Shown: piece by piece, positions 3,419 through 40,312 of the stretch | How positions within the stretch are numbered: position 1 is the first letter of the stretch | Layout of the letters: each line of letters opens with the position of its first letter | Assembly: GCA_002686315.1 (NCBI GenBank) | Contig: NZBO01000003.1 | Span: 1 to 46,773 of the forward strand | Direction: 5' to 3' | Length of the DNA: 46,773 nucleotides | DNA from: an archaeon | GTDB taxonomy: Archaea; Nanobdellota; Nanobdellia; Woesearchaeales; GW2011-AR9 | The notes under the pieces: generated by a model | The model's input: the letters and a program-made list of their open reading frames with translations, nothing else | What the model was told of the DNA's origin: nothing | Databases searched by the model: none | Translations under genes and position numbers: made by a program

Positions 3419-4069
3419 TTAGGTACTTACGGGAAGCGAATACGTTCGTCGTAACGCTAACTCTTTTAATCGAGATAAATTTTTTGCTTTTTGTTTGCTA
3501 AATAACTTGTGTGCACTTGGTGTGCACCACGAATGTTGTTGCTCCAAAAAGTACACTTCAAACCCTAACCAAACATCCCAACTTTTCGCATATTCAAATA
3601 AATGACATTCCGGGTAATGTAACGTTTCCTTGCGTAAATCTTGCATCCACTCCCAGAATCCTTTCTTGCCTAATGCTGCTAAATCCGCATCACGTAACAC
3701 CTTTTCAAATTTGGTCACAGGTGTATATTTGAGATTTGTGGAAAGAATGGCGTTCCGTACTGTAATAATTTGTTCCTTACTAAAACCATGTTTCTCCATA
3801 AATTCTTCCGCTAAATCTGCACCAATTATTTCGTTCTCTAAATATTGTTTCGTAAACCCGGTATCGTGAAATAATGCGGCGATCGCAACTAAATATGTTT
3901 CCTGTTTGGTGAATTTTTCTTTTTTTGCAAGCATCATTGCAGTTGGCACAACACCTTTTATGGTATGTCCTTTTCGATGGTAATAGAACGTTTCATCTAA
4001 ATTAGCTAAATGTAAGCTTGCTACCTTCTTCGCTTCTTCTACATCTTTTTGCGTAATTATTTTCCCCAT
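3419..4069 (-). CDS. HD-domain metal-dependent phosphohydrolase
   Basis: H...HDTGF motif (AALFHDTGF) within a helical protein of about 200 aa. TTAAATATT TATA-like element about 18 nt upstream of the ATG. Confidence 0.7.
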   Translation of the reverse strand: MGKIITQKDVEEAKKVASLHLANLDETFYYHRKGHTIKGVVPTAMMLAKKEKFTKQETYLVAIAALFHDTGFTKQYLENEIIGADLAEEFMEKHGFSKEQIITVRNAILSTNLKYTPVTKFEKVLRDADLAALGKKGFWEWMQDLRKETLHYPECHLFEYAKSWDVWLGFEVYFLEQQHSWCTPSAHKLFSKQKAKNLSRLKELALRRTYSLPVST

Positions 4070-6300: not shown

Positions 6301-6996
6301 ATGAACAAAAAGATTACTGTTGGGGTTGATGAAGCCGGTAGATCTAGCAACGCTTAGTTGTTAGAGCCGTGAGGTCCCGTCCTTGGCCCGTTAGTCATGG
6401 CAGCGATAGCGGTAGATGACAAAGCAGCGCAAAAACTGAAGTGGATGGGTGTGAAAGATTCTAAATTATTAACTGCAAGTGTGAGGGAAGATTTGTTTGA
6501 ACGTATCAAAGATGTTGTTGTTGATTTTCGTGTTGAAGTTATTGAACCAGATGCGATTGATCTTTCGTTAGCAGAATCAAATTTAAATTGGTTGGAAGCA
6601 GATACCTCTGCGCGAATGGTGTCAGAAATGAATCCAGATGTCATTGTGCTTGATTGTCCTTCTGTGAATATTCTCGCGTATAAGAATTATGTTGCGTCAA
6701 AATTGCCCCCTTCCGTGAAAAAGAAGGCACAATTAATTGTGGAACATAAAGCGGACGTGAATTATATCTCTGCTGCAGCTGCATCAATTGTTGCAAAAGT
6801 TATTCGTGATAAGTATATTGAGAACATTAAACGTGAGACGGGGATCGATTGTGGTTCTGGGTATCCATCGGATCCGAAGACGCAAAAGTTCTTACGTGAC
6901 TACCACGATCAGTATCCTGAGTATTTCAGACGAAAATGGAAATCGTATACCAACATGATTGAAAGTAAGAAGCAAATGAGTTTAGGTCAGTTCTAG
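6301..6996 (+). CDS. rnhB: Ribonuclease HII (type 2 RNase H), reading frame interrupted by a 30-nt insert (6342-6371); 221 aa if the insert is removed
   Basis: MNKKITVGVDEAGR (6301-6342), then 30 nt with in-frame TAG (6355) and TGA (6370), then GPVLGPLVMAAIAV in the same frame. Also DSKLL, HKAD..ISAAAASIVAK, GSGYPSD and a C-terminal PIP-like QMSLGQF. Confidence 0.85.
6342..6371 (+). other. Candidate bulge-helix-bulge (BHB) intron within the rnhB coding sequence
   Basis: Central 4-bp helix 6336-6339/6366-6369. 3-nt bulges AGA (6340-6342) and UGA (6370-6372). Inner 9-bp helix 6343-6351/6357-6365 with loop GCUUA. Excision restores DEAGRGPVLGPLV in frame. Confidence 0.6.
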
Positions 6997-7032: not shown

Positions 7033-7845
7033 ATGACAGTATTTACCAACGTTAACAAAAATGATCTTGACACCTTACGCGAGTTAGGATTTCATGATGA
7101 AGATCCTAAAACGATCTATGAAGTGGCGAGGTTACGAAAGAATAATATTTCTGTTGTCTACTATGAATCTCGTAAATTACTTATTCAAGGAAAGGAAGAT
7201 GCTATTAAGAAATTCTCGACAAAATTGCGTTCTCTTGGTATCGGTAAAGAAATGAAGAAAGAAGTGTTTCGAAAAGAGGAAGGATGGGTCATTGGGAGTG
7301 ACGAAACGTTGAAAGGAGATACGTTTGGCGGGCTTGTTGTTGCGAGTGTGAAAGCAGATGGAAAACTGCGAATTGAACTTATGGCCCTTGGCGTTGCGGA
7401 TAGTAAACGGTTGAAAGATGAAGAGATTATGGAAATGGCGTATAAGATTAAACGTCTTGTCCCTTGTGAAATACGTTCTGTCTTACCTGAAGAGTATAAC
7501 AAATATGATGGCGTGACACCGTTGTTAAATCGATTGCATAAAGAGTGTGGCGATTATCTTAAACCTGGAACGCATGTTGTTGACAAGTATCCTGGATGTA
7601 AAGTAGGTGATGTGCAAGAAACGAAAGCGGAATCCAAATATCTCGAAGTGGCGGCAGCGTCTGTTCTTGCTCGAGCGGCCGGGTTAGCGCAGATGCGTTT
7701 TTTATCAAAAGAAGCAGGATTTGATTTGCCGCTTGGAAGTACACATGTTTCTGATGCTTTAGAACGGTTGAAAGAAAGTGGGAAGGATTTCAGAAAGTTT
7801 ACCAAGATGCATTTTAGGAATGTTCGAGCCTTTCTTGAAAGGTGA
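7033..7845 (+). CDS. rnhC: Ribonuclease HIII-like protein (type 2 RNase H with an N-terminal substrate-binding domain)
   Basis: The N-terminal ~85 aa include VVYYESRKLLIQGKED, resembling the RNase HIII N-domain. Catalytic-type motifs GSDETLKGDTFGG, ADSKRL and TKAESKYLEVAAASVLAR (Glu in the KAE position, as in HIII). TATA 7005-7011 lies 21 nt upstream. Confidence 0.7.
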   Translation: MTVFTNVNKNDLDTLRELGFHDEDPKTIYEVARLRKNNISVVYYESRKLLIQGKEDAIKKFSTKLRSLGIGKEMKKEVFRKEEGWVIGSDETLKGDTFGGLVVASVKADGKLRIELMALGVADSKRLKDEEIMEMAYKIKRLVPCEIRSVLPEEYNKYDGVTPLLNRLHKECGDYLKPGTHVVDKYPGCKVGDVQETKAESKYLEVAAASVLARAAGLAQMRFLSKEAGFDLPLGSTHVSDALERLKESGKDFRKFTKMHFRNVRAFLER

Positions 7846-9137: not shown

Positions 9138-9989
9138 ATGCCAGACATGCCAGAGATGAGTGAAGAACAGCGAAAAGAGTTAGAGGAGAAACTCAAAAAC
9201 ATGTCGCCTGAAGAAATTGCGGAACTTCAAAAACAGCAATGTATCTTCTGTCAAATTGTGTCTGGGAAAATTCCGTCTAAAACAATTTATGATGATGATA
9301 AAGTTCTCGTAGTACTAGATATCAATCCTGCCACGAAAGGACATCTTCTTGTTATTCCTAAAACACATTATGCTATCATGCCGCAAATACCTGATGAAGA
9401 GTTAGGTCATTATTTTGTGGTGAGTAAATTTTTATCGCAACTACTTTTGAAGAATATGAAAGCGACTGGTACTAATTTGTTCATCGCGAATGGACAAGCG
9501 GCAGGTCAGCGAGCGCAACATTTCATGCTGCATATCATCCCGAGGAAAGATGGTGATGGTATTCTAGATGCAGAAAGTAAATTGATTGAAGCAGATATGG
9601 TCGCGAAAGTGATGGAAGGTGTCAAGCCAAAATTGTTTGAATTACTTGGTGTGAAGGAAGAAGTGCAGACGACATTAGAGAAAGATGAAGATGATGACAT
9701 TGAAGAGGAAACAGATGATTTAAGTGAGGAAGATGATAATTCAGAACCTGGAGAGGAAGATAATGATGAAAAGTCTGAAGATGAAGACCAAGAAACTCAA
9801 GAAAATGATGATTCTGAGGACGGTGTAGAAGATGATGAACAAGACGACTCCGAGGAATCAGAAAAAAATGATGAATCTGACGAAGATGAAGGTACGGAAG
9901 AAGAAGATTCAAACAAGAAACCTACTAAAGACAAACGGAAAGGAGGAGATGACGTGTCATTAGATGACATTGCGAATCTATTTCAATAA
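9138..9989 (+). CDS. HIT-superfamily protein with a degenerate histidine triad and a ~100-aa poly-acidic C-terminal tail
   Basis: CIFCQIVSGK, HLLVIPKTHY and GQRAQHFMLHIIPR (H-x-M-x-H where H-x-H-x-H is expected). The tail is rich in D/E/S. The ORF-track start 9123 overlaps the divergent gene; ATG 9138 fits the TATA spacing. Confidence 0.75.
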   Translation: MPDMPEMSEEQRKELEEKLKNMSPEEIAELQKQQCIFCQIVSGKIPSKTIYDDDKVLVVLDINPATKGHLLVIPKTHYAIMPQIPDEELGHYFVVSKFLSQLLLKNMKATGTNLFIANGQAAGQRAQHFMLHIIPRKDGDGILDAESKLIEADMVAKVMEGVKPKLFELLGVKEEVQTTLEKDEDDDIEEETDDLSEEDDNSEPGEEDNDEKSEDEDQETQENDDSEDGVEDDEQDDSEESEKNDESDEDEGTEEEDSNKKPTKDKRKGGDDVSLDDIANLFQ

Positions 9990-18427: not shown

Positions 18428-20323
18428 ATGAATACAACCGCCTTTCTTGCGTTATGTACAAGCAGAGGGTATTCCAGCGAGCAGAAAGGTATTTTTGGAC
18501 GAGCTATAACTGTCGCGAACTCCGTTTTACACGATAAAGAAAGGTTGGCGGGTGACACGTTCTTTGATCATAACCTCCGTGTTGCTGCCATATTAGCAGA
18601 AAATAAATCGGATCCTGACATTGTAACAACAGGGATTTTGAATGGTGTTTTAAAATATACAGGTAGCGCGTCGATTGTTGACCAGTTTGGGAAACCTATC
18701 GTCGAATTGCTTCATGGTGTGGAAGATATTAGCGCGATTAAAAGTAAAAATCCGCAACTTGAAGCTGATTCGTTACGTAAAATTTTGCTTACAACATTGA
18801 AAGATGTTCGTGTCATCATTGTCAAACTTGCATCCAAAGTTGAGAATTTACGTACCATCTCATCCCTTCCGGGAAGGCAGCAAAAAAAGATTGCGCAAGA
18901 TGTCCTTGACATATATGCACCTCTCGCAATGCGGCTTGGGTTAGATAAAATAAGAGTGCAATTGGAGGATTTAGCCTTTAGTGTACTTCATCCTAAGAAA
19001 TATGGCGAGATACGTAATTATATTGAAGAATCGAGGGAACAACGTGAACGAAATGTCGAGGAAGCATGTACACTTATTTCTTCTCTCGCGAAAGGAAAAG
19101 CGACAATTTTGAAGATCAAAGGACGGCCAAAACATATCTATAGTATTTTTAAAAAGATGAAAATACGTGGTGTAAAACTTGATCAACAATACGATTTACT
19201 GGGTATTCGAATCATTGTTAAATCGGTGAAAGATTGTTATACGTTACTTGGGTTACTTCATCAACACTTTCAGCCGATCCAAGGTAGGTTAAAAGATTAC
19301 ATTGCGAATCCAAAATCAAATTTCTATCAATCGTTGCATACCGGTGTGTTACTTCCAGGTACAAAACGACTCGAAATTCAAATTCGAACACCTGAAATGG
19401 ATGAGTTAGCGGAGGAAGGAATTGCTGCACATTGGCGATATAAGGGATTGAAGTCTGATGTTCTCTTCGAACGGAAAATGGCATGGCTAAAAGGTGTGCT
19501 TGATTTGCAAAAATCGGGGGAAAGTAAAGAGTTTCTTGAAACAGTGAAGGTAGACTTGTTTGGCGATAAAATTCATTGTTACACACCTAAAGGAGATGTC
19601 AAAGAGTTACCGAAAGATGCAACGCTTCTTGATTTTGCGTTTAGCATTCATGAAGATATTGGGAGTCATGCAGTTGGTGGGCGTGTAAATGGAAAATTCG
19701 TACCAATCAAGAAGAAGTTGGAAGCAGGAGATATCGTTGAAATCATCACAAACAAAAATCAACGTCCAAGGAGAAGCTGGATTAAGATTGTGACATCATC
19801 TAAGAGCAGGCAACGAATCAGGAAAGCGTTGAAACAATATGAATCACTTCCTGCATTTTATTACCGGCGGTTAAAACCTGTCGTGAAAGAAGAACTTGGT
19901 TTATTAGTTGAATCTGAAGAATTTCCGAACGCGATGTGTATCTTAGCGAAATGTTGCAAACCATTACCTGGTTCTGAGATAGTTGGCATATTAACGAAGA
20001 AAAGAATAATATCATCACATTCTCAGACATGCAGACATGTTGAGAAAGAGCAAAATAGATGGGTGCCTGTCCAGTGGAAAAATTCGTTCAACCAGCAAAT
20101 TCAGTTTTGTGTGGAAGCAGGGGAGCGAAGCGGGTTATTGGCAGATTTATTGCACACAATTGCACAAGCTGGTTTTGAGATTAAAGAAGCGAAAGCGAAA
20201 TTACTTGATTCTTATAATGCCCAGTGTTCTTTCACGGTTATTCCTCGAGATCTGGAACAATTACAAGAAATGGTTGGTCGTGTTAAGAAAGTGAAGGGCG
20301 TTAAGAAGATGTATTTTGAGTGA
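18428..20323 (+). CDS. Long RelA/SpoT homologue: pseudo-hydrolase, (p)ppGpp synthetase, TGS and ACT domains
   Basis: Synthetase motifs GRPKHIYSIFKKM, YDLLGIRIIV, DYIANPKSNFYQSLHT and EIQIRTPEMDELAEEGIAAHWRYK. TGS IHCYTPKGDVKELPKDATLLDFAFSIH. C-terminal ACT-like GLLADLLHTIAQAGFEI. The hydrolase HD motif is replaced (ILNGVLKYT). Confidence 0.85.
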   Translation: MNTTAFLALCTSRGYSSEQKGIFGRAITVANSVLHDKERLAGDTFFDHNLRVAAILAENKSDPDIVTTGILNGVLKYTGSASIVDQFGKPIVELLHGVEDISAIKSKNPQLEADSLRKILLTTLKDVRVIIVKLASKVENLRTISSLPGRQQKKIAQDVLDIYAPLAMRLGLDKIRVQLEDLAFSVLHPKKYGEIRNYIEESREQRERNVEEACTLISSLAKGKATILKIKGRPKHIYSIFKKMKIRGVKLDQQYDLLGIRIIVKSVKDCYTLLGLLHQHFQPIQGRLKDYIANPKSNFYQSLHTGVLLPGTKRLEIQIRTPEMDELAEEGIAAHWRYKGLKSDVLFERKMAWLKGVLDLQKSGESKEFLETVKVDLFGDKIHCYTPKGDVKELPKDATLLDFAFSIHEDIGSHAVGGRVNGKFVPIKKKLEAGDIVEIITNKNQRPRRSWIKIVTSSKSRQRIRKALKQYESLPAFYYRRLKPVVKEELGLLVESEEFPNAMCILAKCCKPLPGSEIVGILTKKRIISSHSQTCRHVEKEQNRWVPVQWKNSFNQQIQFCVEAGERSGLLADLLHTIAQAGFEIKEAKAKLLDSYNAQCSFTVIPRDLEQLQEMVGRVKKVKGVKKMYFE

Positions 20324-21916: not shown

Positions 21917-22576
21917 ATGGATCGAAATCACCCTTTATTTCCTGCATTATCGACGTTAGTGCAAACAGGATTTAAGACTCCTATGTTACAACAAATTTTG
22001 ATGGCCGCGCAAGGTGATGATAGGTTAGTGCTGACGGTGGAGCGATTTCAACCTGGACTTGAAATTCCTGGAAGCAATAGCGATGTAGGGATACGAGTTT
22101 TTGCTGATAAAAGCGGTGCTTTTTATCATGGTTTGATTCAAGATCGGTCAGGTATGCGTTCTGTGTATGATGCGCAGTTTCATCCAGTAGCAGACAGGAT
22201 GCCAGATATTACGTATGAAGTATTTCAACAAAATAGTGGAAATACGACTAACCCAATCTATCTGCTTGAAAAAAGTTCTTTTGATTCTCCTGACCCAATT
22301 CGCGTTGGAACACAAGGAAGAGAATCAGAATTAATTGTAGGTCCATCAGGTGGAACAACCGCCTTTTCATTCCAACATGAAGGAAGAGATCAATTTGAAG
22401 ACCCTTCATTGCGTGCAACGTTCTATGACCGACGAGTGAGATTACAGATAGATCATGTTCCTCCTCAAGAAGGTACTTTGGTGGTTGATTTTTATCCTAT
22501 CTGTAATAGTGCACCAGATTTACCATATCTCTCGGGGAAAGAAGTTTTTTCTATATTGGATCGAGGCGAGCGATAA
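21917..22576 (+). CDS. Hypothetical protein (219 aa)
   Basis: The ORF track starts at TTG 21872. ATG 21917 (MDRNHPLF...) lies 22 nt after TATTTATA (21887-21894). No recognised domain. Confidence 0.5.
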   Translation: MDRNHPLFPALSTLVQTGFKTPMLQQILMAAQGDDRLVLTVERFQPGLEIPGSNSDVGIRVFADKSGAFYHGLIQDRSGMRSVYDAQFHPVADRMPDITYEVFQQNSGNTTNPIYLLEKSSFDSPDPIRVGTQGRESELIVGPSGGTTAFSFQHEGRDQFEDPSLRATFYDRRVRLQIDHVPPQEGTLVVDFYPICNSAPDLPYLSGKEVFSILDRGER

Positions 22577-22607
22577 GTATTTTAAAGGAACTCTCTTTTT
22601 ACTATAC

Positions 22608-23558
22608 ATGTCAAAATTAACTCCAATACCATCATCACAGTACCCTCCGTTTAAACCTAAATTTATCGAGAGATATTCACAACTAACTGATTGGGAAGCA
22701 TTCAAAAAGTATTCTCTCTGCTTTCTACGAAGGTCTATCAGATTAAATCCACTGACTGCAGATCCAAGCAAAACAAAGAGTTCAATCGAAGCAAAAGGAT
22801 GGAAACTTGATCCAATTCCATGGAATCCATTAGGCTTTTGGATATCGCACCCTGATAGAAAAGATGTGGGTAATTTGTTAGAACATCATTTAGGTAAAAT
22901 ATATGTGCAAGAAGCAGCTTCAATGATCCCGCCGTTGGTATTACAACCACAACCAAATGATATCGTGCTAGACATGTGCGCGTCTCCCGGTTCAAAAACA
23001 ACGCAAATGGCAGCTATGATGGAGAATACGGGTTTGTTAATTGCGAATGATTACAAGGGGATGAGGTTACAATCACTTGGAATTAATTTACAACGAAGCG
23101 GGTTAACAAACACAGTCTTAACGTTATTGGATGGTACCAAATTTCGTGATTTTCAATTTGATAAAATTCTTGTAGATGCACCGTGTTCAGGAACCGGAAC
23201 CATTCGAAAAAGTTTGAAAACCATCACGATGTGGAATGCAGGGATGATTACAAAACTTGCAAAACAGCAAAAAAAGTTACTCGAAAATGCCTTTAAAAAT
23301 TTGAAAGAAGGTGGTGAATTAGTGTATTCTACTTGTTCCGTTGAACCTGAGGAAGATGAAGGGGTCGTTGATTTTCTTATCAAAAAATATGATAATGCGG
23401 AAATTGTACCTGTGAAACTACCTGGTTTGAAAACATCACCACCAATCATGTCGTTTAATGGCGTGGAGTATCACGAATCACTAAAACATTCGTTGAGAAT
23501 CTGGCCGCAAGATAATGATACGGAAGGTTTTTTTGTGTGTAAAGTGAGGAAAAAGTGA
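22608..23558 (+). CDS. NOL1/NOP2/Sun-family RNA (cytosine-C5)-methyltransferase
   Basis: DMCASPGSKT (SAM motif I), DAPCSGTG (motif IV Pro-Cys) and YSTCSVEPEE (motif VI Thr-Cys). The start moves to ATG 22608, 21 nt after TATTTTAAA (22578-22586). Confidence 0.85.
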   Translation: MSKLTPIPSSQYPPFKPKFIERYSQLTDWEAFKKYSLCFLRRSIRLNPLTADPSKTKSSIEAKGWKLDPIPWNPLGFWISHPDRKDVGNLLEHHLGKIYVQEAASMIPPLVLQPQPNDIVLDMCASPGSKTTQMAAMMENTGLLIANDYKGMRLQSLGINLQRSGLTNTVLTLLDGTKFRDFQFDKILVDAPCSGTGTIRKSLKTITMWNAGMITKLAKQQKKLLENAFKNLKEGGELVYSTCSVEPEEDEGVVDFLIKKYDNAEIVPVKLPGLKTSPPIMSFNGVEYHESLKHSLRIWPQDNDTEGFFVCKVRKK

Positions 23559-26067: not shown

Positions 26068-26310
26068 ATGTTAGAAGAATTTGTTGGTGGGGCTGTATCT
26101 GTTGAGTATGTCGCACGTAGACCATCGCGAAAACATTGTTCAGGTACACTTCTTTTTTCATACGATGGTGATTTTTCTCGTATTGCCGTTCGTGCAGTAG
26201 ATAATGGTATTTACATCATACCATATAATTCAATATTGAAAATGATGCTTAACGCTCCAACACTTCTTCCCGATCAACATGCACAATCTTTGACGGACGT
26301 GCTTCCTTAG
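26068..26310 (+). CDS. Possible small protein (80 aa), weakly supported
   Basis: It fills an otherwise unexplained 197-nt gap between convergent stops in a genome where such genes usually abut. There is no properly spaced TATA box or SD, and its last 62 nt run antisense to the YrdC gene. Confidence 0.25.
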   Translation: MLEEFVGGAVSVEYVARRPSRKHCSGTLLFSYDGDFSRIAVRAVDNGIYIIPYNSILKMMLNAPTLLPDQHAQSLTDVLP

Positions 26311-26812
26311 GACCTTCATAAATCATCAATTCAACGTGTTTCTCAACATCTGAGTCAAGGTTTTCAAGAGATGTCATAAATTGGTGACCTGTGATGTTTG
26401 CAGATGTAGTAATAAGTGGGATGCCAAGTTCTTGCACAAATTCATGGAACCAGTGTGCTGGTAGCCGTATACCAATTGAGTTTTTATTGGTAACATTTGG
26501 TGCAAGTGCATTTTCTGTGTCTAATGGAAGAATCAACGTATATGGTCCAGGTAATTTACCAAGCCATTCAGCCGCGCTAGGTGTGATGACACAATTTGTT
26601 GAGATCCATTTCATGTTTGGTACCCAGATAGATAATGGGGAAGAAGGACGCTGTTTAATGTCACGTACTTTTTTCACTGCCTCTTCATTCGTTGCGACAC
26701 ATCCAATACCATAGATGGTATCTGTCGGATAGATGAATATTGTACCCTGTCTCATCTTCGTGAGAATTTCTTCTTTCCGCATTTCTAATTCTGCTCGTGT
26801 TAATACTTCCAT
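26249..26812 (-). CDS. L-threonylcarbamoyladenylate synthase, YrdC/Sua5 family (YrdC domain only)
   Basis: IFIYPTDTIYGIGCVATNEEAVKKVRDIKQRPSSPLSI and LITTSANITG. The start moves from 26944 to ATG 26812, 24 nt after TTATTTAAA (26837-26845). Confidence 0.85.
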   Translation of the reverse strand: MEVLTRAELEMRKEEILTKMRQGTIFIYPTDTIYGIGCVATNEEAVKKVRDIKQRPSSPLSIWVPNMKWISTNCVITPSAAEWLGKLPGPYTLILPLDTENALAPNVTNKNSIGIRLPAHWFHEFVQELGIPLITTSANITGHQFMTSLENLDSDVEKHVELMIYEGPKEARPSKIVHVDREEVLER

Positions 26813-26918
26813 AGAAAGAGAGGAGTTCGGGGCGGGTTTAAATAAGTTATGTAGGTAGATGGCAAAGAAATCGTTGCCGCCCCGATCCTCCAGAGGTGTG
26901 GTGTAAGAACGTGAGTTC

Positions 26919-27026
26919 TCACGCAAACGCGGGATGGTGATCATCCAAAAACGTTTGTCGTTCTGTATACTGGGAATACCCTTGGTATTTGCTAAGTAAA
27001 TTTGTTATATGTTGTTTCATATTCAT
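26919..27026 (-). CDS. Micro-ORF 2 (35 aa: MNMKQHITNLLSKYQGYSQYTERQTFLDDHHPAFA)
   Basis: Its ATG overlaps the TGA of micro-ORF 1 (ATGA). GGAGGA lies about 9 nt upstream. It is below the ORF-track size cutoff. Confidence 0.3.
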   Translation of the reverse strand: MNMKQHITNLLSKYQGYSQYTERQTFLDDHHPAFA

Positions 27027-32721: not shown

Positions 32722-33660
32722 ATGGGAAGACATCTTAGAAATCTGGGACTTGTTGCGGCACTTTTATCACCAATAGCAGTCGCTCCAAATGATTCGCAAG
32801 CACAAGAAATGTGTGTTACTTCTGAATCTCCTTTAGTTTGTTCAACAGAATTAGAACAAAAATTATATGAAAAAACAAGAGAAGAATTGAGAAAAACAGA
32901 TATGGTTGATGGACTTTGGAGAAATATAACTAATTTTCAAGGAAGTTATGATACTCTTGTCTTTATGAAGAAAGATGAAGGTGAATTAACAATTAGATAT
33001 TGGGTAGAAAGAGATTTTAAGGATAAGGTTGATGAAGAAGTTGTTGATTTTGTGACATATCATTTTCAAAAAAGTTTTGAGATTCTAGGAGAATCAATGG
33101 TCATTAATTTTGATGCGATAGATATTGTTATCAACCCAAAAGGAAGGCATACTATATCGTCAAATGCAAGTGAATCAAATCTCGTTAAGATATCTTATAA
33201 CAGATGGCGAAAATTAAGTCTGCAACGATATTTGGTTGATACAATCCATCCTGTATTAAGTTCATCACATGAACTTGCTCACATTGAAAAAAATATCCAT
33301 ATAGAAGGATATAGGAATAAAGATAAGGCGAGAAATAAAGAATTTAGGGAAGTTATTGCTGTTATGGCTGAAGCTCAAACTATACGAAATGCTCTTGGGA
33401 GAAAAGCGTTTGGATTTTATTTACATAGATCAATTGATAACAGTCTGTACAGACAAATAGGTGTTCATATTTTTAATGATGTAAAGAGAACTTACGGGAC
33501 GGATACCGCTCGTGTTTTGATTGAGGATTTAACAAAAAATTTAGTCAATAATGAAAATGATTTTGATGCTATTTTAGACCGAAACGGAGTGAGAGAAGGC
33601 TACAGTGGTTATATTGAGAGTTTGAATACATTTATTGGAAAAAGACGGAAGTGTGGGTAA
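32722..33660 (+). CDS. Secreted protein with an HExxH zinc-metalloprotease motif
   Basis: Signal peptide (LGLVAALLSPIAVAP) and HELAH encoded at 33268-33282. ATG 32722 lies 22 nt after TTTATAAA (32692-32699); the ORF track uses TTG 32713. Confidence 0.5.
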   Translation: MGRHLRNLGLVAALLSPIAVAPNDSQAQEMCVTSESPLVCSTELEQKLYEKTREELRKTDMVDGLWRNITNFQGSYDTLVFMKKDEGELTIRYWVERDFKDKVDEEVVDFVTYHFQKSFEILGESMVINFDAIDIVINPKGRHTISSNASESNLVKISYNRWRKLSLQRYLVDTIHPVLSSSHELAHIEKNIHIEGYRNKDKARNKEFREVIAVMAEAQTIRNALGRKAFGFYLHRSIDNSLYRQIGVHIFNDVKRTYGTDTARVLIEDLTKNLVNNENDFDAILDRNGVREGYSGYIESLNTFIGKRRKCG

Positions 33661-33719
33661 TTCTTTTTTAGAAATTTCAAAAGGTATGGTTCTCAGAATA
33701 ATGAGTGGGCCCAGCCGGA

Positions 33720-33737
33720 CTTTCGCTTGATTAAAGT
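33720..33737 (-). other. tRNA-Val intron 2 (18 nt, T-loop position 59/60)
   Basis: ACTTTAATCAAGCGAAAG. T54-G57 (TTCG) pairs with intron CGAA. Bulges AG|A and AG|U. Inner helix CUU/AAG. The mature T-loop is TTCGAGT. Confidence 0.8.
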
Positions 33738-33759
33738 CTCGAACCGGCGATCAATGCCT

Positions 33760-33776
33760 CACTTATCCTTACGGAA
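33760..33776 (-). other. tRNA-Val intron 1 (17 nt, canonical position 37/38)
   Basis: TTCCGTAAGGATAAGTG. Central helix C32-A35 pairs with intron TAAG. Bulges CA|U and UG|A. Inner 3-bp helix capped by GUAA. Confidence 0.85.
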
Positions 33777-33913
33777 TGTAAGGGCACTGTCATAGCCACT
33801 AGACCATGGGCCCACATGAACCTGTTTCTGAAGGTTATTTATTAAGGTTTTGGTGGTACGTTCCTTTTTTTAAGTCACAACGTTTTTAAATCAATTTTAT
33901 CTTCTTTGATGAG

Positions 33914-34369
33914 ATGCATAACGCACATTTAAATGGATATCAACAACGTGTTCGTGCCGTTGTTCTTGAAGGGAAAACAACACTTCTCTATGGTCTTGAT
34001 AGAGCAACGATGGAAGGATGTGCAAGAGAAACAGCACGAGGGAAACCTATCACTGATTTCGCGTCTCTTGTAGGAATGAACCCTCACAATCTTACATCTC
34101 GTTTATCATGTTTAGAACGTGATACACGTGGTAGAATTGTGATCACAGATGTGTTTGGTGAAAGGGGACGATTCACACGTAATGATGTACGACGTACGTA
34201 TGAAGCAATGCGAGCACATAATTTTGAAGATGGTTCGTTGCGTCCACGTATACGTTTTTTACTATTTGCGTACACACCCGAATCAGATCTTCTTCAAACA
34301 CAATCAACACCGTACCATCCTTTAAATCCGAAACGAAAATGGTGTCAATGGGTTAACCTACAAACATAA
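33914..34369 (+). CDS. Hypothetical Arg-rich protein (151 aa), possible HTH
   Basis: TTTTTAAA (33883-33890) lies 23 nt upstream of the ATG. The segment ITDFASLVGMNPHNLTSRLSCLE looks like a helix-turn-helix. Confidence 0.5.
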   Translation: MHNAHLNGYQQRVRAVVLEGKTTLLYGLDRATMEGCARETARGKPITDFASLVGMNPHNLTSRLSCLERDTRGRIVITDVFGERGRFTRNDVRRTYEAMRAHNFEDGSLRPRIRFLLFAYTPESDLLQTQSTPYHPLNPKRKWCQWVNLQT

Positions 34370-39562: not shown

Positions 39563-40312
39563 CTAGAACTTCCGACAAAACACTAAAAATCCTGTATGTC
39601 CAAGCATATTAAATTCAGGTCTCATTATCCTACCGTCAATTTTCCATTTCCGCTCGATTAATTCGAGTGTTTCGATAACTTGTAACCCATCCCTACACGA
39701 ATCAATAAACATTTTTACTTGCGGTAAATTAGGTAAATACACAACTACATGCCCACCTTGCTTTAATGCACCACCTAGATGTTCAATAACTTGCCACGGC
39801 TCAGGTAAATCTAATGTAATTAGGTCGACATTCTTCTCTGCAATACCCTTATACACATTTTCTTGTTTCAAATCTAGGTTCGAAATACCAAACATTTTCA
39901 CATTTCGTTGTATGACATCATAATGTTCCGGGTTAATTTCGTAGACATGCACCTTTTTACATACGTTCGCTAAGGAAAGACATAACGATCCAGATCCACC
40001 GCCTGCATCCACGCAAATTGAATCCTTATTCACACCTGTCTTGGCAAGAATCATCCCAATATCTTTCTGAATCATCACCTGCGGTCCTCTCTTTAATCCG
40101 TCCCATAAATCGGGAAAGGTCGGCGTGACAACGGTAAATGCTTTTCCTTTATTCGATTTTACGACACCATCTTTCTTCATATCTTTTGAAGCAATACTAC
40201 CAGAAGCTGTATGAAATTCATCACTTAGATCTTTGACGTAATATTTCGTACCTGTTTTATGTTCAATGAGTACTTTCTTGATGGTGTGTCTCATAGTAAG
40301 TAAAGAATGCAA
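39563..40312 (-). CDS. trmI: tRNA (adenine-N1)-methyltransferase TrmI (GCD14 family)
   Basis: PQVMIQKDIGMILAKTGV, SAM motif VDAGGGSGSL and VDLITLDLPEPW. Confidence 0.85.
   Translation of the reverse strand: MHSLLTMRHTIKKVLIEHKTGTKYYVKDLSDEFHTASGSIASKDMKKDGVVKSNKGKAFTVVTPTFPDLWDGLKRGPQVMIQKDIGMILAKTGVNKDSICVDAGGGSGSLCLSLANVCKKVHVYEINPEHYDVIQRNVKMFGISNLDLKQENVYKGIAEKNVDLITLDLPEPWQVIEHLGGALKQGGHVVVYLPNLPQVKMFIDSCRDGLQVIETLELIERKWKIDGRIMRPEFNMLGHTGFLVFCRKF

What the first reader, a model, noticed from the sequence alone, without database searches (positions are those of the whole stretch)
33706..33813. tRNA-Val(UAC) carrying two canonical BHB introns, one at 37/38 and one in the T-loop at 59/60
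The 108-nt gene folds to a standard 73-nt cloverleaf only if two segments are removed. These are 17 nt after position 37 (33760-33776) and 18 nt between T-loop positions 59 and 60 (33720-33737). Each forms a textbook hBHBh' motif.
- Intron 1: helix C32-A35 pairs with intron UAAG, bulges are CA|U and UG|A, and the inner helix UCC/GGA is capped by GUAA.
- Intron 2: helix U54-G57 (UUCG) pairs with intron CGAA, bulges are AG|A and AG|U, and the inner helix is CUU/AAG.

Multiple and non-canonical tRNA introns are characteristic of a limited set of archaeal lineages. They imply a splicing endonuclease with broad positional tolerance. That is independent support for reading the rnhB insert as an intron.
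Basis: seen in the sequence. Interest (0 to 1): 0.65.

Follow-up and report, generated by a model that had tools for sequence, protein, structure and literature searches.

The report
Two-intron valine tRNA gene, archaeal
This is a real valine tRNA gene from a tiny DPANN archaeon, broken by two short protein-spliced introns (one next to the anticodon, one in the T-loop); this gene layout is already known in archaea, and standard tRNA finders miss it.

Summary
On the minus strand, 33813..33706 holds a 108-nt gene. Removing 33776-33760 (17 nt, after position 37) and 33737-33720 (18 nt, between 59 and 60) leaves a 73-nt tRNA-Val(UAC). ARAGORN calls this spliced form. It is 72/73 identical to an uninterrupted orthologue that scores 66.6 bits against Rfam tRNA.

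Both inserts form strict bulge-helix-bulge motifs: a 4/4 central helix, two 3-nt bulges and 3-bp inner helices.

The motif alone is common by chance in the window. The weight comes from 45 distinct orthologues, including the window's own gene, found in metagenomes and MAGs:
- Exons are nearly invariant, while introns vary widely in sequence and length.
- Intron-less genes join exactly at the predicted splice junctions.
- The inner helices covary.
- 14 of the 45 genes, counting the window's own, share the 37/38 + 59/60 layout.
- Some relatives carry introns at 15/16 or 20/21 instead, with 0 to 3 introns per gene.

The host is most likely a Woesearchaeota/Nanoarchaeota (DPANN) archaeon.

Multi-intron tRNAs with a 59/60 intron are already documented, so this is a new member of a known kind. 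Its practical value is that ARAGORN and Rfam miss it. Such genes may explain tRNAs reported as missing in DPANN genome surveys.

The parts
33835..33845 (-). TATA-box-like element TTAATAAATAA at -32..-22, preceded by the A-rich run CCAAAACC. This is the presumed archaeal promoter of the tRNA gene.
   Evidence: Read directly. 27 of 45 distinct orthologue upstream regions have their best TATA-like 8-mer starting at -37..-31. L010, L051 and L061 share the same AAAACCTTAATAAATAAC box. Promoter function is inferred.
33777..33813 (-). Exon 1, tRNA positions 1-37: acceptor 5' strand, D-arm, anticodon-stem 5' strand and anticodon U34 A35 C36.
   Evidence: Identical in L001 and 0-7 differences across the 17 distinct mature sequences.
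33760..33776 (-). Intron 1, 17 nt, at the canonical position 37/38. Strict hBHBh' motif.
   Evidence: Central helix 4/4, outer 7 bp, inner 3 bp. ARAGORN -i finds exactly this intron once intron 2 is removed. The inner helix covaries in 28 orthologous introns. In L062 the homologous intron carries about 55 extra nt in the loop.
33738..33759 (-). Exon 2, positions 38-59: anticodon-stem 3' strand, variable loop, T-stem 5' strand and T-loop U54-G59.
   Evidence: This exact 22-mer (with N at position 49) retrieved 52 metagenome loci.
33720..33737 (-). Intron 2, 18 nt, at the non-canonical position 59/60 in the T-loop. Strict hBHBh' motif.
   Evidence: Central helix 4/4 (UUCG/CGAA), outer 5 bp (the T-stem), inner 3 bp. 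It is the shortest of 16 distinct 59/60 introns (18-98 nt), all ending CGA(A/U/G)NN|U60. Covariation is shown. Shifted boundaries that give the same mature RNA (57/58, 58/59) score worse.
33706..33719 (-). Exon 3, positions 60-73: U60, T-stem 3' strand, acceptor 3' strand and discriminator A73. No CCA is encoded.
   Evidence: G49-C65 and C49-G65 each occur 8 times among the 16 orthologues of alignment A1.
33692..33705 (-). 3' trailer CTCATTATTCTGAG, pyrimidine/T-rich. This is the likely region of transcription termination and 3' processing.
   Evidence: Most orthologues have (C)CATTTTTC(T) right after A73. The tract in the window is weaker. Its role is inferred.

Best explanation
This is a functional gene for tRNA-Val(UAC) in a DPANN archaeon, most likely of the Woesearchaeota/Nanoarchaeota group. 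Its coding sequence is interrupted by two short bulge-helix-bulge introns.

Proposed mechanism:
1. Transcription starts about 25 nt downstream of a TATA-like box and yields a precursor containing the 108-nt unit.
2. In the precursor, the anticodon arm and the T-arm are each extended by pairing between exon and intron. CUUA (32-35) pairs with UAAG, and UUCG (54-57) pairs with CGAA. Each arm then shows two 3-nt bulges separated by 4 bp.
3. The archaeal splicing endonuclease (EndA) cuts after the second nucleotide of each bulge. This releases the 17-nt and 18-nt introns.
4. An RtcB-type ligase joins the three exons into a 73-nt tRNA.
5. The tRNA then receives CCA and its T-loop and other modifications.

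Shown here: the sequence anatomy, the exact junctions (matched by intron-less orthologues), exon conservation against intron hypervariability, and helix covariation.

Inferred from established knowledge of archaeal tRNA splicing: promoter use, EndA cleavage, RtcB ligation and the order of events.
For: - The spliced product is called tRNA-Val(TAC). It carries the canonical tertiary-pair residues: U8-A14, G15-C48, G18/G19 with U55/C56, U54-A58 and G53-C61 (read from the sequence).
- The uninterrupted orthologue L013 differs by 1 of 73 nt and scores 66.6 bits against RF00005, whose gathering score is 29.
- Both BHB motifs are strict. Shuffled introns meet the motif in 0.25% and 0.10% of trials.
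- There are 45 distinct orthologous genes: 44 parsed plus L062. Seven have no intron, 15 have 37/38 only, 2 have 59/60 only, 14 including the window's own have 37/38 + 59/60, and the rest have introns at 15/16 or 20/21. Exon joins in the intron-less genes fall exactly at the predicted sites.
- For the 59/60 set, covariation is 0.282 against 0.098 in shuffles (0/500 reach it), and 93% of cells pair against 18-63% when the partners are slid.
- For the 37/38 set, covariation is 0.286 against 0.063 (0/500), and 90.5% pair against 29-43%.
- Gene order LonB-ScpA-tRNAVal-AMP phosphorylase is conserved.
- The closest LonB relative (80% aa, L062) has both introns plus a compensatory C28-G42 change in the anticodon stem.
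- A TATA-like box sits at a conserved distance.
- The 59/60 position and multi-intron tRNAs are documented, including tRNA gene disruption in DPANN (PMC4090602, PMC4033280, PMC5829648).
Against: - There are no RNA data, so splicing is not observed.
- The exact cloverleaf-plus-two-BHB structure evaluates to -36.3 kcal/mol against an MFE of -47.1. The MFE keeps the T-arm central helix and 3' bulge but uses a shifted register (UUAC/GUGA) in the anticodon arm. The mature tRNA's MFE is not a cloverleaf either, so this weighs little.
- No EndA or RtcB gene lies in the window.
- The T-rich trailer is weaker than in orthologues.
- Whether the genome holds another tRNA-Val(UAC) copy is unknown.
Confidence: 0.93

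Rival explanations
1. The locus is a decaying tRNA pseudogene. The two segments are insertions that are never removed, and the BHB-like pairing is incidental.
For: Standard finders do not call the gene. BHB-like motifs are common by chance in the window. No expression data exist.
Against: Exons are under strong constraint, with 0-7 differences in 73 nt across relatives whose proteins are only 68-80% identical. Introns are free to vary except where they pair. Fourteen distinct genes have the same layout in the same gene neighbourhood. The promoter box is conserved. Shuffled introns rarely form the motif at the fixed junctions.
Confidence: 0.04
2. Only the 37/38 insert is a true intron. The T-loop insert is retained, or removed by a different route, giving an atypical tRNA with an expanded T-loop.
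For: Position 59/60 is non-canonical. The inner helix of intron 2 is only 3 bp, and the MFE prefers a different small helix there.
Against: The T-arm motif is as strict as the canonical one: central helix 4/4, two 3-nt bulges, and the T-stem as a 5-bp outer helix. Sixteen distinct 59/60 introns of 18-98 nt keep CGAN plus 2 nt before U60 and covary in the inner helix. Orthologues lacking the insert join G59 to U60 directly. An 18-98-nt T-loop insert would break the U54-A58 and G18/G19-U55/C56 contacts (established tRNA structure).
Confidence: 0.02
3. The match is a chance resemblance in AT-rich intergenic DNA and there is no gene.
For: None beyond the absence of Rfam and ARAGORN hits on the raw sequence.
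Against: The fold z-score is -4.5, with 0 of 200 shuffles folding as well. The 22-nt exon 2 recurs exactly in 52 metagenome loci, each inside a recognisable tRNA-Val gene. Local GC is 54% in the gene against about 39% in the window.
Confidence: 0.01

Closest known systems
Multiple-intron tRNA genes of Thermoproteales (Crenarchaeota), reported by Sugahara et al. 2007/2008 as summarised in PMC4090602 and PMC4033280
   Same: Up to three BHB introns per tRNA gene, one usually at 37/38 and others at non-canonical sites that include 20/21 and 59/60. They are removed by EndA. Intron content differs between related genomes.
   Different: The host here is a mesophilic, AT-rich DPANN archaeon rather than a hyperthermophilic crenarchaeon. 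Both motifs here are strict hBHBh', whereas many crenarchaeal non-canonical introns use relaxed HBh'/hBH forms. No sign was seen that the same intron has moved into other tRNA genes, although the sample was only 538 kb.
Disrupted tRNA genes of DPANN archaea: ARMAN-2/Micrarchaeum with epsilon2 EndA (PMC3239211, PMC3488258), and Pacearchaeota/Woesearchaeota with L3-loop alpha4 EndA (PMC5829648)
   Same: Same superphylum. Non-canonical and multiple tRNA introns are reported to be increased there. tRNA sets predicted by tRNAscan-SE are incomplete, which the authors attribute to unidentified disrupted genes.
   Different: Those papers give genome-level counts. This specific tRNA-Val(UAC) layout and its variation among orthologues (0-3 introns at four sites) were not found described in the papers I could read. 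The EndA type of this organism was not determined here.
[quoted passage not shown] 2012, PLoS ONE 7:e32504, cited in PMC4033280)
   Same: Presence or absence of an intron in the same tRNA gene among related genomes, read as ongoing gain or loss.
   Different: I know that work only from the citation and did not read the paper. Here the variation is among family- or order-level relatives (65-75% nt identity in flanking genes), not within one population.
Split and tri-split tRNA genes of Nanoarchaeum equitans and Caldivirga maquilingensis
   Same: A BHB-type junction is processed by EndA. They occur in small archaeal genomes and are invisible to standard tRNA finders.
   Different: Here all three exons are contiguous and collinear on one strand within 108 nt. 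Splicing is in cis, not in trans.

Membership tests
Archaeal BHB (hBHBh') tRNA intron | Two 3-nt bulges on opposite strands separated by a 4-bp helix | tested here: met
   Both introns have a 4/4 central helix with 3-nt bulges: CA|U and UG|A for intron 1, AG|A and AG|U for intron 2.
Archaeal BHB (hBHBh') tRNA intron | Flanking outer (h) and inner (h') helices | tested here: met
   Outer helices are 7 and 5 bp and inner helices are 3 and 3 bp. h' covaries across orthologues, with 0/500 shuffles reaching the observed score.
Archaeal BHB (hBHBh') tRNA intron | Removal at the bulge cleavage sites yields a canonical cloverleaf tRNA | tested here: met
   ARAGORN calls the 73-mer tRNA-Val(TAC). Intron-less orthologue L013 is 72/73 identical to it and scores 66.6 bits against RF00005.
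Archaeal BHB (hBHBh') tRNA intron | Cleavage by EndA (leaving 2',3'-cyclic phosphate and 5'-OH ends) and ligation by RtcB | not testable with these tools
   No RNA or enzyme data are available. No EndA or RtcB gene was found in the 46.8-kb window.
Multiple-intron tRNA gene with a non-canonical intron | At least two introns in one collinear tRNA gene, with at least one away from 37/38 | tested here: met
   Introns lie at 37/38 and 59/60. The same layout occurs in 13 other distinct orthologues, counting L062.
tRNA-Val | Anticodon UAC with A35, C36 and discriminator A73 (valine identity elements as established for bacterial ValRS and assumed to hold for archaea) | tested here: met
   U34 A35 C36 and A73 are read in the spliced sequence. 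Aminoacylation was not tested.
Split or permuted tRNA gene | Exons encoded at separate loci or in rearranged order and joined in trans | tested here: not met
   Exons 1-3 are contiguous and collinear within 108 nt on one strand.
Group I or group II self-splicing intron | Catalytic RNA core of hundreds of nucleotides, detectable with Rfam models | tested here: not met
   The inserts are 17 and 18 nt. Rfam finds no match at E<=10 in 33500-34000.

The most novel reading that the evidence does not exclude
In this Woesearchaeota-like DPANN clade, BHB introns may be an actively turning-over element class. Three observations point that way:
- One orthologous tRNA-Val gene carries 0-3 introns at four different sites.
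- The same endonuclease/ligase system appears also to splice a protein-coding mRNA (rnhB, 30-nt insert at 6342-6371).
- Multi-intron genes such as this one could be the unrecognised cause of the tRNAs reported as missing (Val, Trp) in recent Nanobdellota complete-genome surveys (10.64898/2026.05.13.725050).
Probability: 0.35. Interest if true: 0.55.

Novelty: new member of a known kind. Interest (0 to 1): 0.35.

Why it matters
- **Annotation.** ARAGORN and the Rfam tRNA model both miss this gene. They also miss every orthologue with a 59/60 intron (0 of 16 called, even with ARAGORN's intron option). Genome surveys of DPANN archaea would therefore score tRNA-Val(UAC) as absent. A 2026 preprint on 208 complete Nanobdellota genomes reports unexplained missing tRNA-Val and tRNA-Trp. 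Hidden multi-intron genes are a simple, testable explanation.
- **Evolution.** The orthologue series has nearly identical exons with 0-3 introns at 15/16, 20/21, 37/38 and 59/60. It is a clean natural data set on gain, loss and length change of BHB introns outside the Crenarchaeota.
- **Link to rnhB.** It makes the neighbouring candidate mRNA intron in rnhB more believable.
- **Limits.** None of this changes current understanding of the mechanism.

Tried and rejected
- **Standard finders on the raw window.** ARAGORN found 0 genes. Rfam found nothing at gathering score or at E<=10 around the locus. The whole window at E<=1 gave only a sub-threshold sR52 C/D-box hit at 9750-9810. This shows the finders fail here, not that the gene is absent.
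- **ARAGORN without the intron option** on the construct keeping only intron 1 gave a spurious tRNA-Cys(ACA) with a long extra arm. I rejected it because the -i run and the orthologues give Val(UAC).
- **Window-wide BHB scan as a significance test.** My first version had an index error, corrected. The corrected scan shows the motif is too common (605 against about 450 in shuffles) to serve as evidence alone.
- **MFE folding as proof of the BHB.** The MFE reproduces the extended arms but not the exact anticodon-arm register. I relied on covariation instead.
- **Search for intron mobility.** I looked for copies of the two window introns and of the conserved 42-nt 59/60 intron family elsewhere in 538 kb of loci plus the window. 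Apart from one 3-mismatch match to intron 2 in L004, which I take as chance, all hits lie in tRNA-Val genes.
- **Taxonomy from genome record titles.** The titles conflict: 'Methanosarcinales' against 'Nanoarchaeota'. LonB homologue names favour Woesearchaeota/Nanoarchaeota.
- **EndA or RtcB in the window.** Neither was found.
- **Sugahara 2007 (PMC1852824)** is not held in the library.

Full report
**Observation**

The minus strand from 33813 to 33706 reads GGGCCCAUGGUCUAGUGGCUAUGACAGUGCCCUUACA | UUCCGUAAGGAUAAGUG | AGGCAUUGAUCGCCGGUUCGAG | ACUUUAAUCAAGCGAAAG | UCCGGCUGGGCCCA.
- Intron 1 (33776-33760, 17 nt) follows A37. C32-A35 pairs with intron UAAG. The bulges are CA|U and UG|A. The inner helix UCC/GGA closes a GUAA loop.
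- Intron 2 (33737-33720, 18 nt) lies between G59 and U60. U54-G57 pairs with intron CGAA. The bulges are AG|A and AG|U. The inner helix CUU/AAG closes a UAAUC loop.
- A scorer written for the hBHBh' geometry gives a 4/4 central helix for both, outer helices of 7 and 5 bp, and inner helices of 3 bp each.
- Boundaries shifted to 57/58 or 58/59 would give the same mature RNA for intron 2, but they score worse.

**Is the spliced product a tRNA?**

- ARAGORN finds nothing in the window or in the 108-mer.
- ARAGORN calls the 73-nt spliced sequence tRNA-Val(TAC). With its intron option it also recovers exactly intron 1 once intron 2 is removed.
- Rfam finds no match on the raw DNA, even at E<=10.
- An uninterrupted orthologue (L013) differs from the window's spliced product at 1 of 73 positions and scores 66.6 bits against RF00005, whose gathering score is 29. 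Other intron-less orthologues score 64-67 bits. Orthologues with only the canonical intron score 53-55 bits. A two-intron orthologue (L023) is missed, like the window gene.
- The spliced sequence carries the usual tertiary-pair residues: U8-A14, G15-C48, G18 G19 with U55 C56, U54-A58 and G53-C61. It also has A35, C36 and A73. No CCA is encoded.

**Chance**

The 108-mer folds at -47.1 kcal/mol, with z = -4.5 and 0 of 200 shuffles folding as well. With the junctions held fixed, shuffled introns satisfy "central helix 4/4 and inner helix >=3" in 494 and 201 of 200,000 trials.

A window-wide scan shows that the strict motif alone is common: 605 hits against 420-469 in shuffles (one search had an indexing error and is superseded). 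The motif by itself therefore proves nothing.

The thermodynamic MFE also does not reproduce the exact anticodon-arm register. The textbook structure evaluates to -36.3 kcal/mol. The mature tRNA's MFE is not a cloverleaf either.

**Comparative evidence (decisive)**

Relatives were collected in three ways:
- Searching genomes with the neighbouring AMP phosphorylase gave 9 MAG loci.
- Scanning metagenomes with the exon-2 pattern AGGCATTGATCNCCGGTTCGAG gave 52 loci.
- Looking up the closest LonB homologues added four more loci.

The window's own gene was parsed with them. This gave 55 parsed tRNA-Val(UAC) genes, 44 of them distinct, plus L062.

| Intron positions | Distinct genes |
|---|---|
| none | 7 |
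| 20/21 only | 2 |
| 37/38 only | 15 |
| 59/60 only | 2 |
| 20/21 + 37/38 | 3 |
| 37/38 + 59/60 | 14 (13, incl. window, plus L062) |
| 15/16 + 20/21 + 37/38 | 1 |
| 15/16 + 37/38 + 59/60 | 1 |

- Mature sequences differ from the window's by only 0-7 nt.
- Intron lengths are 17-50 nt at 37/38 in the parsed set, 72 nt in L062, and 18-98 nt at 59/60. Intron sequences differ widely.
- Genes that lack an intron join exactly at the predicted splice junctions, reading CUUACA-AGGCAU and UUCGAG-UCCGG.
- The pattern required an unbroken exon 2, so introns inside positions 38-59 could not be sampled.

**Covariation**

Each intron was anchored at both splice sites to give gap-free alignments (A1 with 16 sequences at 59/60; A2 with 28 at 37/38).

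| Measure | 59/60 | 37/38 |
|---|---|---|
| Cells forming a standard pair | 93.2% | 90.5% |
| Same, partners slid by 1-3 columns | 18-63% | 29-43% |
| Covariation score (shuffle mean) | 0.282 (0.098) | 0.286 (0.063) |
| Shuffles reaching the observed score | 0/500 | 0/500 |

- All three inner-helix pairs change on both sides in both sets. At 59/60 the inner helices include CUU/AAG, UGGA/UCCA, CAUUA/UAAUG, UAAAUCA/UGAUUUA and GCGCA/UGCGU.
- The T-stem pair 49-65 is G-C in 8 sequences and C-G in 8.
- The closest relative by LonB (80% aa, L062) has the same gene order and both introns. Its anticodon stem carries a compensatory C28-G42. Its 37/38 intron is the window's intron with about 55 nt inserted in the GUAA loop.

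**Context and host**

- The window encodes LonB, TrmB, ScpA, AMP phosphorylase, family-B DNA polymerase, ribosomal protein S8e, Sua5 and a GCD14/TrmI-type tRNA m1A58 methyltransferase, among others. GC is about 39%.
- The order LonB-ScpA-tRNA-Val-AMP phosphorylase recurs in relatives at 65-75% nucleotide identity.
- Genome record titles conflict between 'Methanosarcinales' and 'Nanoarchaeota'. The best LonB homologues (75-80% identity) that carry a name are called Woesearchaeota, Nanoarchaeota or Nanoarchaeia.
- I infer a DPANN archaeon of the Woesearchaeota/Nanobdellota group. The order-level placement is not shown.
- TTAATAAATAA lies at -32..-22. 27 of 45 distinct orthologue upstream regions have their best TATA-like box starting at -37..-31.

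**Mechanism**

- Shown: the anatomy, the junctions, the conservation pattern and the covariation.
- Inferred from the established archaeal pathway: transcription from the TATA box; formation of two BHB motifs in the precursor; EndA cleavage after the second nucleotide of each bulge; RtcB ligation of three exons; then CCA addition and T-loop modification, which needs an intact T-loop and so presumably follows removal of intron 2.
- Both motifs are strict hBHBh', so this gene alone does not demand a broad-specificity EndA. The relaxed motifs in relatives do hint at one: central helix 2-3/4, or no helix directly abutting the bulge, as in the conserved 42-nt 59/60 intron family AAAGUCACUGCG...GGCUUACGAA. 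That would fit the report that DPANN alpha4 EndAs with an L3 loop go along with increased tRNA gene disruption (PMC5829648).

**Comparison with what is known**

- Non-canonical positions, including 20/21 and 59/60, and tRNA genes with up to three introns are documented, above all in Thermoproteales (PMC4090602 and PMC4033280).
- DPANN lineages, including one Woesearchaeota and one Pacearchaeota genome, were noted to have disrupted tRNA genes and incomplete predicted tRNA sets (PMC5829648).
- The gene meets every sequence-level criterion of a BHB multi-intron tRNA. It is not a split or permuted gene and not a group I/II intron.
- It is therefore a new member of a known kind.

**What is of some interest**

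- Standard finders miss this gene and all 16 orthologues with a 59/60 intron.
- A 2026 preprint on 208 complete Nanobdellota genomes reports tRNA-Val as missing in 15 of 54 Pacearchaeales and tRNA-Trp as missing in 30 of 123 Woesearchaeales. It leaves this unexplained (10.64898/2026.05.13.725050). Multi-intron genes like this one are a candidate cause, but I could not test those genomes.
- The orthologue series documents intron turnover at four sites in one gene.

**Side check on rnhB**

- The ORF starting at 6301 reads MNKKITVGVDEAGR and then meets in-frame stops.
- Removing 30 nt (6342-6371) joins it in frame to GPVLGPLVMAAIAV.
- The insert is bounded by bulges AG|A and UG|A, a central helix CGGU/GCCG and a 9-bp inner helix. 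The outer helix is only 1 bp.
- The joined protein matches Pfam RNase_HII over profile positions 1-197 at 153 bits. The unspliced ORF matches only 18-197 at 112 bits.

**Verdict**

The gene is real and probably functional (confidence about 0.93). Its kind is already known, so interest is modest.

Noticed in passing
window 6301-6996 (+), insert 6342-6371: The rnhB (RNase HII) gene is interrupted by a 30-nt insert containing two in-frame stop codons. The insert folds as a BHB-like motif: bulges AG|A and UG|A, central helix CGGU/GCCG, a 9-bp inner helix, and an outer helix of only 1 bp. Removing it restores GVDEAGR|GPVLGP and a full-length RNase_HII match (153 bits, profile 1-197, against 112 bits and profile 18-197 for the unspliced ORF). 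This is a candidate BHB intron in a protein-coding mRNA.
   Followed up: partly
L014 ~1784-1881, L015, L028 ~7205-7302, L029 ~3546-3685, L033 ~617-723 (and duplicate loci L037, L056, L059): In these relatives the TATA-like box lies upstream of a 12-13-nt copy of tRNA-Val positions 1-13 (GGGCCCATGGTCT). A conserved, structured 85-130-nt element follows (TGCGCAAGTGTAAACACACTTGATAAGTTATGCGAC...TTAGTCCC), and then the complete tRNA-Val gene. No Rfam family matches it. It could be a leader-borne small RNA or the remnant of an element integrated at the tRNA 5' end. It remains unexplained.
   Followed up: partly
L010 (gene at ~590-745) and L061: Two orthologues carry three introns each, including one at 15/16 in the D-loop (18-21 nt, central helix 4/4, no outer helix). 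I did not see this position in the lists of known sites I could read.
   Followed up: no
L015, L024, L032, L040, L061, L062 (59/60 introns): A conserved 59/60 intron family of about 37-43 nt (AAAGUCACUGCGUUCGUUCAUUCGUGCGCAGGCUUACGAA..) is shared by diverged hosts. Its inner helix is offset by one unpaired A, which makes the BHB relaxed. The window's 18-nt intron may be a shortened derivative.
   Followed up: partly
window 39563-40312 (-), 26249-26944 (-), 22455-23558 (+): Several RNA-modification genes lie in the same window: a GCD14/TrmI-type tRNA m1A58 methyltransferase, whose target A58 sits next to the 59/60 intron; Sua5/YrdC (t6A); and an RsmB/F-NSUN-type m5C methyltransferase.
   Followed up: no
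window 18428-20323 (+); also L065 9308-10044: A long RelA/SpoT homologue (HD, RelA_SpoT, TGS and ACT domains) is encoded in an archaeal genome and conserved in a relative. It sits next to a GAPDH gene with Gp_dh_N/Gp_dh_C domains. This is unusual for archaea and may reflect transfer from bacteria.
   Followed up: no
window 7033-7845 (+): A second RNase HII-domain ORF (270 aa, with about 86 extra N-terminal residues) lies directly downstream of rnhB, so two RNase HII paralogues sit in tandem.
   Followed up: no
window 9750-9810 (+): A weak, sub-threshold Rfam hit to the C/D-box sRNA sR52 (24.9 bits against a gathering score of 50, E=0.39) falls inside the HIT-domain ORF. It is probably chance.
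   Followed up: no
loci L001, L002, L005, L006, L008: MAG records titled 'uncultured Methanosarcinales archaeon' share gene order and 68-74% AMP phosphorylase identity with records titled 'Nanoarchaeota archaeon'. The Methanosarcinales label looks like a taxonomy-assignment artefact.
   Followed up: partly
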